The notes under the pieces were generated by a model. It searched no databases. It had not been told where the DNA came from and was given only the letters and a program-made list of their open reading frames with translations. Made by a program: the position numbers and the translations under genes. Positions 61,419-61,518 of a stretch of DNA of 64,000 nt are shown piece by piece (within the stretch, counting starts at the first letter, position 1; each line of letters begins with the position of its first letter). The stretch comes from Escherichia coli (GTDB taxonomy: Bacteria; Pseudomonadota; Gammaproteobacteria; Enterobacterales; Enterobacteriaceae): the NCBI RefSeq assembly GCF_003018255.1, contig NZ_CP027440.1; one strand, 5' to 3'.

Positions 61419-61518
61419 AATGAACGAAAGAGAAAATTAACAATGAGCGGAAAACCAGCGGTATACTAAGGCGATGCCATGTTGAAAGATAGTCCAATAG
61501 TCTAAAGTGGAGAACTCA

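What the first reader, a model, noticed from the sequence alone, without database searches (positions are those of the whole stretch)
61442..61461. A 20-nt copy of the rhs start region recurs downstream of the immunity gene
GATGAGCGGAAAACC(G/A)GCGG at the rhs start codon (56802-56821) reappears at 61442-61461, where it would encode only MSGKPAVY before a stop. This looks like a recombination scar from another rhs 5' end and marks the boundary of a further AT-rich module.
Basis: seen in the sequence. Interest (0 to 1): 0.45.

Follow-up and report, generated by a model that had tools for sequence, protein, structure and literature searches.

The report
Leftover start of a lost rhs gene
The short repeat is real: it is the decayed first ~125 bases of a second, different rhs toxin gene, left as a dead stub between two toxin/immunity modules of the E. 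coli rhsA locus. It is an ordinary gene relic that records how the locus was rearranged.

Summary
The window holds the E. coli rhsA locus (selB-selA-yibF | rhs | ... | yibH). The repeat exists, with small corrections. The shared word is the 19-mer ATGAGCGGAAAACCRGCGG at 56803 and 61443 (18/19). Chance expects 0.01 such matches.

It is not a copy of the local rhsA start. Bases 61462-61503 match the 5' ends of another rhs type (a tRNA-Asn island rhs, and the second rhs of a tandem pair in strain D8). The 24-nt leader matches only the rhs-start stub at the end of the rhsD locus.

The stub (61420-61544) has two stop codons and indels, and its changes are almost all GC-to-AT transitions. At about 61544-61550 it is fused to the 3' part of a Tlde1-type orphan Rhs toxin. 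An intact Imm57 immunity gene follows.

The stub is 100% identical in 180 of 5426 complete E. coli genomes and always accompanies the M91-like toxin and its immunity gene. Similar stubs end the rhsD array (2800 genomes) and an rhsH-type array.

Best reading: a relic of a downstream rhs gene, cut down by deletion. Interest is low.

The parts
56803..60950 (+). Main rhsA-locus rhs gene. In this window it is a pseudogene, through a 5-nt duplication (TGCCC, about 56994-56998) that splits it into ORFs 56803-57141 and 56916-60950.
   Evidence: ORF list. RefSeq marks the near-identical locus L001 as 'frameshifted'. Alleles in L015 and L016 are intact and lack the 5 nt. The core is 95.8% identical to K-12 rhsA up to about 60520.
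56803..56821 (+). First 19 nt of the rhs coding sequence (MSGKPA..). This word is near-invariant in all rhs 5' ends compared.
60549..60950 (+). Rhs C-terminal toxin after the DPLGL motif (60534-60548). It has an HExxH motif (AHEMGH) and resembles a Peptidase_M91 metalloprotease.
   Evidence: Translation. Precomputed Pfam PF14891 on the identical E. coli protein P0008. The RHS core models end at the DPLGL region.
61008..61418 (+). 136-aa gene in the immunity position for the M91-like toxin. It has no family assignment.
   Evidence: Homologues of 67-71% identity occur only in E. albertii rhs arrays.
61420..61442 (+). Leader of the rhs stub. It begins 2 nt after the immunity gene's stop codon.
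   Evidence: 18/20 identity to the leader of the rhsD-locus stub (L005), 0 of 3000 shuffles reach this. Not significantly similar to the leaders of intact rhs genes.
61443..61544 (+). Decayed rhs codons 1 to about 34 (the PAAR-like N-terminus). Stops at 61467-61469 and 61503-61505; about 8 nt of net indels after 61503. This is the finding.
   Evidence: 47/61 nt identical to L004; 13 of the 14 differences are transitions and 11 are GC>AT. Identical in 180 genomes and 3 metagenome contigs.
61550..61782 (+). 3' part of a Tlde1-type Rhs C-terminal toxin, out of frame with the stub. Homology to the intact orphan of strain N-01 starts at 61544-61550. The N-terminal part of the domain is missing. An 87-codon chimeric ORF (ATG 61519, GGAG at 61509-61512) runs through it.
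   Evidence: Only Pfam Tlde1_dom positions 66-107 of 120 are still detected (E = 0.0011).
61787..62308 (+). Intact Imm57 immunity gene, 173 aa.
   Evidence: Pfam Imm57 E = 5.4e-44. RefSeq annotation of near-identical loci.
62469..62700 (+). Remnant of an ISAs1 (H-repeat) transposase gene between Imm57 and yibH.
   Evidence: 80% identity to the ISAs1 transposase gene of L002.

Best explanation
Bases 61420-61544 are a non-functional relic of the 5' end of a second rhs gene: a leader plus the first ~34 codons of the PAAR-like N-terminus. That gene belonged to a different lineage from the rhsA gene 4.6 kb upstream. It once began just after the immunity gene of the M91-like toxin, giving a tandem arrangement rhs-immunity-rhs, either at this locus or in the array the module came from. 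A deletion or illegitimate join then removed nearly all of it and fused codon ~34 to the middle of the Tlde1 orphan toxin that ends the rhsA array. After that the stub drifted by GC-to-AT transitions and acquired stop codons. Later, recombination between the main rhsA core and the core fragment in front of the M91 orphan module promoted that module into the main gene, which produced the compact locus seen in this window.

Shown: the homology, the boundaries, the decay, the linkage to the M91 module, and recurrence at other loci. Inferred: that the second gene was once full length, and the order of events.
For: The stub is homologous to rhs 5' ends.
- The 19-mer is unique to the two start positions.
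- The whole stub scores 42 against the L004 rhs 5' end, shuffle maximum 20.
- The part after the 19-mer is significant on its own against L004 and D8 rhs2 (0/3000) but not against local rhsA.

The stub is decayed.
- Two stops and indels.
- 13 of 14 differences from L004 are transitions, 11 of them GC>AT.
- GC is 46%, against 64-68% in intact 5' ends.

The stub is linked to the M91 module.
- It is 100% identical in 180/5426 genomes, the same number that carry the M91 toxin and immunity gene.
- All sampled copies lie at the rhsA locus.

The right-hand boundary is defined.
- Homology to the intact Tlde1 orphan of N-01 starts at 61544-61550.
- In N-01 and K-12 that toxin is preceded by an rhs core 3' end, not a 5' end.

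There is precedent for the proposed steps.
- Tandem full-length rhs genes exist: strain D8 has vgrG-rhs1-immunity-ORF-rhs2, and rhs2's N-terminus is the type closest to the stub.
- Other stubs exist: the rhsD-locus stub in 2800 genomes, truncated by an IS fragment, and an rhsH-type stub truncated at codon 14 by ISAs1.
- An orphan configuration exists: metagenome contig L022 carries yibA, a 456-nt core fragment, the M91 toxin, the immunity gene, the stub, the truncated Tlde1 toxin and Imm57 in that order. The promotion mechanism, main/orphan recombination, was shown experimentally in Salmonella (PMC3967940).
Against: - No copy with a longer or intact second rhs behind this immunity gene was found. 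Searched: 5426 E. coli genomes, one genome each of about 100,000 species, and metagenomes. A once full-length gene is therefore inferred, not seen.
- The decay is very uneven. At sites invariant in intact genes, 0/18 have changed in the first 19 nt against 9/21 in the next 44 nt (p = 0.0016). Leader and coding part also have different closest relatives. The stub may therefore be a mosaic or carry a conversion patch, which simple drift does not predict.
- Tandem full-length rhs pairs are rare in E. coli. Only 3 genomes have the D8 arrangement.
- The E. albertii homologue of the immunity gene has no stub behind it.
Confidence: 0.7

Rival explanations
1. Chance similarity: a 19-20 nt word that happens to recur in AT-rich spacer DNA.
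For: Against the local rhsA start alone, the similarity beyond the 19-mer is no better than shuffled sequence (score 20 against a maximum of 21).
Against: The word is expected 0.01 times in the window. The flanks match other rhs 5' ends far above shuffles. It sits at an ATG, in the orientation of the array, directly after an immunity gene, as do the stubs at two other rhs loci.
Confidence: 0.01
2. Local duplication: the stub was copied from the 5' end of the rhsA gene in the same locus, for example at the join-point of a tandem duplication of the locus.
For: Tandem duplication of rhs loci has been proposed as a step in rearrangement (PMC3150448, discussion). The 19-mer is 18/19 identical to the local start.
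Against: The 24-nt leader is unrelated to the yibF-rhsA upstream region. The coding part after nt 19 is not significantly similar to local rhsA but is to L004 and D8 rhs2. For example, the stub's GDAMLKDSPIV fits GDAT(M/L)KGGPIV, not [11 protein letters not shown].
Confidence: 0.03
3. The stub is a mosaic. An old, heavily decayed rhs 5' tract (61462-61544) had its first ~43 nt (leader plus 19-mer) overwritten by gene conversion or recombination with another stub or rhs start of the rhsD-stub type. This is compatible with the relic reading but adds an event.
For: At invariant sites, 0/18 changed in nt 1-19 against 9/21 afterwards (p = 0.0016). The leader matches only the rhsD-locus stub (18/20, 0/3000), while the coding part matches only L004 and D8 rhs2.
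Against: A 43-nt conversion tract with so little flanking homology is short for RecA-dependent exchange. The 19-mer is invariant in every lineage, so it carries no information about its source. Only one sequence variant of the stub exists, so the events cannot be ordered.
Confidence: 0.25
4. The stub has been co-opted. Its decayed sequence now supplies a Shine-Dalgarno site (GGAG 61509-61512) and an ATG (61519) for an 87-codon chimeric ORF ending 4 nt before Imm57. Translation then reaches the orphan immunity gene by coupling, which keeps protection against Tlde1-type Rhs toxins of neighbouring cells.
For: The SD-ATG spacing of 6 nt and the ORF 61519-61782 are read directly from the sequence. 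Imm57 is intact here but frameshifted in K-12 RR1. The stub is invariant in 180 genomes.
Against: Invariance can equally reflect recent common descent: the whole locus is 98-99.9% identical among copies. RefSeq annotates no gene there. No promoter signal above chance was found. There are no expression data.
Confidence: 0.08

Closest known systems
Orphan rhs-CT/immunity modules and 'C-terminal displacement' in rhs arrays (Jackson et al. 2009, PMC2935791; Poole et al. 2011, PMC3150448; Koskiniemi et al. 2014, PMC3967940)
   Same: The stub lies in such an array. Module 2 (Tlde1 remnant plus Imm57) is the displaced terminal orphan of the rhsA locus and is present in 3646 of 5426 genomes. The M91 module exists as an orphan behind a 456-nt core fragment in contig L022 and as the main toxin in the window, as expected from main/orphan recombination.
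   Different: Described orphans begin with a piece of the rhs core 3' end (the DPxGL region). Here the piece in front of the orphan toxin is an rhs 5' end with its leader. The searched passages of these papers do not mention such a piece, and the toxin itself is cut in half.
The rhs N-terminal fragment at the distal end of the rhsD locus. It is annotated in RefSeq as 'hypothetical protein, incomplete, missing C-terminus'. From memory, unverified here, this is the K-12 pseudogene ylbI, 'Rhs family'.
   Same: It has a leader plus the first ~32 codons of an rhs gene, lies at the far end of an rhs array in the same orientation, and is non-functional (start codon ATT). Its leader is 18/20 identical to the window stub's.
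   Different: It is at a different locus and carries a different coding type (GDMPQYGGP). It is much less decayed (64% GC). It is truncated by an IS-related fragment (ylbG) rather than fused to a toxin remnant. It is present in 2800 genomes, against 180 for the window stub.
Tandem full-length rhs genes, as at the rhsE-side locus of E. coli D8: vgrG-rhs1-immunity-ORF-rhs2
   Same: A second rhs gene starts 70 nt after a small ORF that follows the first toxin/immunity pair. Its N-terminus (MSGKPAARQDDATLKGGPIVQGS) is the type closest to the stub.
   Different: In D8 the second gene is full length (4.5 kb), though frameshifted. In the window only ~125 nt remain. The leaders are not significantly similar.

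Membership tests
rhs gene 5' end (PAAR-like N-terminus MSGKPAARQGD...) | Start codon followed by the conserved ATGAGCGGAAAACCRGCGG / MSGKPA word | tested here: met
   61443-61461 is identical to the word in L004 and D8 rhs2, and 18/19 to local rhsA.
rhs gene 5' end (PAAR-like N-terminus MSGKPAARQGD...) | Colinear homology continuing into the N-terminal domain | tested here: met
   61462-61503 scores 19 against L004 and 18 against D8 rhs2, 0/3000 shuffles. A colinear patch at 61524-61544 matches 17/20. Homology ends at about 61544.
rhs gene 5' end (PAAR-like N-terminus MSGKPAARQGD...) | Open reading frame continuing into YD-repeat core | tested here: not met
   Stops at 61467 and 61503. No core follows. 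The PAAR motif reads PAVY. It is therefore a relic, not a gene.
Orphan rhs-CT/immunity module | Fragment of the rhs core 3' end (DPxGL region) directly upstream of the toxin domain | tested here: not met
   In the window the Tlde1 remnant is preceded by the 5' stub, not by core sequence. The core fragment is present in N-01 and K-12 RR1.
Orphan rhs-CT/immunity module | Complete C-terminal toxin domain | tested here: not met
   Only Tlde1_dom model positions 66-107 of 120 remain (E = 0.0011). The intact N-01 protein matches positions 10-106.
Orphan rhs-CT/immunity module | Cognate immunity gene immediately downstream | tested here: met
   Imm57, E = 5.4e-44, starts 4 nt after the toxin remnant's stop codon.
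Structured RNA or regulatory element | Match to a known RNA family, or a terminator or promoter signal above chance | tested here: not met
   No Rfam match at E <= 1 in 60900-62800. No terminators. Promoter-like sites number 12, against 9.3 +/- 3.1 in shuffles.

The most novel reading that the evidence does not exclude
rhs 5' stubs are now seen at three loci: rhsA here, rhsD in 2800 genomes, and an rhsH-type array. They could be systematic footprints of a second route by which rhs arrays gain modules. In that route a whole rhs gene, or a circle carrying core 3' end, toxin, immunity gene, leader and rhs 5' end, enters in tandem by a single crossover in the long core. Deletion then collapses the duplicated gene. 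This differs from the usual picture of double-crossover replacement of the tip. The uneven decay of the stub (first 43 nt pristine, the rest saturated with C>T and G>A) would then also need a specific cause.
Probability: 0.15. Interest if true: 0.45.

Novelty: new member of a known kind. Interest (0 to 1): 0.2.

Why it matters
The stub is a datable scar. It shows that the M91-like toxin and its immunity gene once lay upstream of another rhs gene of a different lineage. It also shows that the terminal Tlde1 orphan of the rhsA locus was cut by the same rearrangement. Together with contig L022, it lets the steps that built this compact rhsA allele be ordered: orphan, then promotion to the main gene. 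Practically, it explains an unannotated 370-bp gap in RefSeq annotations of 180 E. coli genomes. It also warns that the short ORFs there (MSGKPAVY, and the 87-91 codon ORF) are remnants. It does not reveal a new kind of element.

Tried and rejected
- Searching about 100,000 species genomes with the immunity protein found no relative.
- A degenerate leader-plus-start pattern in the same collection gave one chance hit in Bacillus.
- The immunity protein search found relatives only in E. coli and E. albertii. In E. albertii the homologue lies behind a different immunity-type gene, and the DNA after it shows no similarity to the stub. An apparent MAFFT alignment was no better than shuffles.
- The toxin search found only the identical E. 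coli cluster, so no donor was identified.
- Bases 61462-61552 have no other match in 5426 E. coli genomes.
- The metagenome scan gave 3 contigs, all with an identical stub.
- I first took the stub's leader to be homologous to the L004 and E. albertii vgrG-rhs intergenic leaders. Tested alone, that is not significant, and I dropped it.
- The Rfam and terminator/promoter scans were negative.
- The literature search found no description of rhs 5' stubs in the passages I searched.
- I ran no further search on the repaired 34-aa peptide. The query is too short to discriminate among thousands of MSGKPA... Rhs proteins.

Full report
**Locus.** The 3' end of the window is the E. coli rhsA locus. Its order is:
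- selB, selA and yibF on the minus strand;
- a 4.1-kb rhs gene at 56803-60950;
- a 136-codon gene at 61008-61418;
- a 370-bp stretch that RefSeq leaves unannotated;
- an Imm57 gene at 61787-62308;
- yibH on the minus strand at 62765-63901.

Locus L001, strain JNE23-011, is 100% identical over 61400-62420.

**Observation.** The repeated word is ATGAGCGGAAAACC[G/A]GCGG at 56803-56821 and 61443-61461, 18/19 identical.
- With up to two mismatches it occurs only at those two places. Shuffles expect 0.01.
A second in-frame TAA lies at 61503-61505.

**Does the match extend?**
- Against the local rhsA start it hardly does: score 20 against a shuffle maximum of 21. The part after the 19-mer is not significant.
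- Against other rhs 5' ends it clearly does. A distant BLAST of 61419-61556 found about 50 genomes in which 61420-61502 aligns at 75% to the start of an rhs gene on an island next to tRNA-Asn.
- Local alignment of the stub to that gene (L004) scores 42, against a shuffle maximum of 20.
- Bases 61462-61548 alone score 19 against L004 and 18 against the second rhs of strain D8. None of 3000 shuffles reaches either score.
- At protein level the stub's GDAMLKDSPIV* lines up with GDATMKGGPIVQ (L004) and DDATLKGGPIVQ (D8 rhs2). It does not line up with the local [12 protein letters not shown].
- A further colinear patch at 61524-61544 matches L004 17/20 with one gap (1-2 of 2000 shuffles). The relic therefore probably runs to about 61544, with about 8 nt of net loss after 61503.
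- The 24-nt leader (61420-61442) begins 2 nt after the immunity gene's stop codon. It is significantly similar only to the leader of another stub at the end of the rhsD locus (18/20, 0/3000).

**Decay.**
- Over the first 61 coding nt the stub is 47/61 identical to L004.
- 13 of the 14 differences are transitions, and 11 are GC>AT.
- GC content is 46%, against 64-68% in intact 5' ends.
- The PAAR motif reads PAVY.
- The decay is uneven. At sites invariant in seven intact rhs starts, 0/18 have changed in nt 1-19 and 9/21 in nt 20-63, all C>T or G>A (Fisher p = 0.0016). I cannot explain this. A conversion patch or a mosaic origin is possible.

**Right-hand boundary.**
- From 61544-61550 onward the window is 98.5% identical to strain N-01 and 95.7% to K-12 RR1.
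- In those strains this sequence is the 3' part of an orphan Rhs C-terminal toxin. The toxin is preceded by an rhs core 3' fragment ending in DPLGL.
- The intact N-01 protein hits Pfam Tlde1_dom at positions 10-106 of 120.
- The window keeps only positions 66-107 (E = 0.0011), in a different frame from the stub.
- The next gene is a solid Imm57 (E = 5.4e-44).
- This terminal orphan module is present in 3646 of 5426 complete E. coli genomes.

**Left-hand context.**
- The rhs core is rhsA-like (95.8% to K-12) up to about 60520.
- After DPLGL (60534-60548) comes an HExxH toxin. Its identical database copy carries PF14891, Peptidase_M91.
- The toxin, the 136-aa gene and the stub occur together. 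180 genomes have the toxin and immunity gene. 180 have the stub at 99% identity or more.
- All sampled copies are at the rhsA locus with the same layout.
- The stub is base-for-base identical in every copy examined.

**An older configuration.**
- Metagenome contig L022 (OATN01000854.1) carries, in order: yibA, a 456-nt core fragment starting at the equivalent of window 60068, the M91 toxin, the immunity gene, the stub, the truncated Tlde1 toxin and Imm57. There the M91 module is an orphan in the position K-12 gives to its first orphan.
- No complete genome has this layout.
- The window's layout follows from it by recombination between the main rhsA core and the orphan's core fragment. This mechanism was shown experimentally for Salmonella orphans (PMC3967940).
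- The fusion of stub to Tlde1 remnant therefore predates that step.

**Recurrence elsewhere.**
- At the distal end of the rhsD array, 2800 of 5426 genomes carry a leader plus about 32 rhs codons. The start codon is mutated to ATT, and the piece is truncated by the IS-related ylbG fragment.
- At an rhsH-type array next to yafV, a leader plus 14 codons follows the immunity-type gene dsORF-h1 and is cut by ISAs1.
- Strain D8 has two full-length rhs genes in tandem: vgrG-rhs1-immunity-ORF-rhs2. This arrangement is rare, found in 3 genomes.

**Interpretation.**
- The simplest account is a relic of a second rhs gene that once followed the M91 immunity gene. A deletion joined its codon ~34 to the middle of the Tlde1 orphan toxin.
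- Whether the gene was ever full length at this locus, or the scrap arrived already truncated with the module, cannot be decided. No longer version was found in any collection.
- Chance similarity and local duplication are excluded.
- A regulatory RNA has no support.
- A co-opted role is possible but untested: an SD (GGAG 61509-61512) and ATG (61519) for an 87-codon ORF that ends 4 nt before Imm57.

**Comparison with known systems.**
- The array follows the orphan-module and C-terminal-displacement picture (PMC2935791, PMC3150448).
- What differs is that the piece in front of the orphan is an rhs 5' end rather than a core 3' fragment. The passages of those papers that I searched do not mention such pieces. 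The rhsD example is annotated in genomes only as an incomplete hypothetical protein.
- This is a new, unannotated member of a known kind: rhs gene relics.

**Verdict.** Interest is low (0.2).

Noticed in passing
window 56994-56998: The main rhs gene of this window is a pseudogene. A 5-nt duplication (TGCCC) shifts the frame after codon ~64. The same lesion is in strain JNE23-011 (L001), but the gene is intact in L015 and L016.
   Followed up: yes
window 61443-61505: Decay of the stub is sharply uneven. There are no changes at 18 invariant sites in the first 19 nt, against 9 of 21 in the next 44 nt, all C>T or G>A (p = 0.0016). The leader and the coding part have different closest relatives. 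This is unexplained; it could be a mosaic or a conversion patch.
   Followed up: partly
window 61509-61782: A chimeric 87-codon ORF (ATG 61519) has a well-spaced GGAG (61509-61512) that comes from the decayed stub. It reads into the Tlde1 remnant and ends 4 nt before the Imm57 start. It might keep Imm57 translated by coupling. RefSeq does not annotate it.
   Followed up: no
L022 (metagenome contig OATN01000854.1), whole contig: This contig carries the M91-like toxin, immunity gene and stub as an orphan module behind yibA and a 456-nt core fragment. Another rhs tip and several small ORFs lie upstream. The layout is absent from all 5426 complete E. coli genomes.
   Followed up: partly
L005 5000-5117 (rhsD locus, strain a7; the same in 2800 genomes): An rhs 5' stub with its start codon mutated to ATT, about 32 codons long and 64% GC, truncated by the ylbG IS-like fragment. 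Its leader is 18/20 identical to the window stub's.
   Followed up: partly
L018 5001-5061 (rhsH-type locus next to yafV, strain 100416): A third rhs 5' stub: a leader plus 14 codons (MSGKPAARQGDMTR), 77 nt after the immunity-type gene dsORF-h1, cut by the left end of an ISAs1 element. It is unannotated.
   Followed up: partly
L019 / L021 (strain D8, yncH-pptA region): Two full-length rhs genes lie in tandem in one array: vgrG-rhs1-ankyrin immunity-ORF-rhs2 (frameshifted)-ORF-IS1/ISAs1-orphan. Only 3 of 5426 genomes share the junction.
   Followed up: partly
window 62469-62700: A remnant of an ISAs1 (H-repeat) transposase gene between Imm57 and yibH, 80% identical to the intact copy in N-01.
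   Followed up: no
L012 5366-6349, L008 7434-8417 (E. albertii): The only non-E. coli homologues of the 136-aa immunity-position gene (67-71% identity) sit as a second small gene behind a 149-aa dsORF-h1-like gene, at the end of a vgrG-rhs array next to yafV. No M91-like toxin is present, so they are apparently orphan immunity genes.
   Followed up: partly
window ~59155-59221: Relative to L001, the window's rhs core has an unaligned stretch of about 67-72 nt, an in-frame-sized indel in the YD-repeat region.
   Followed up: no
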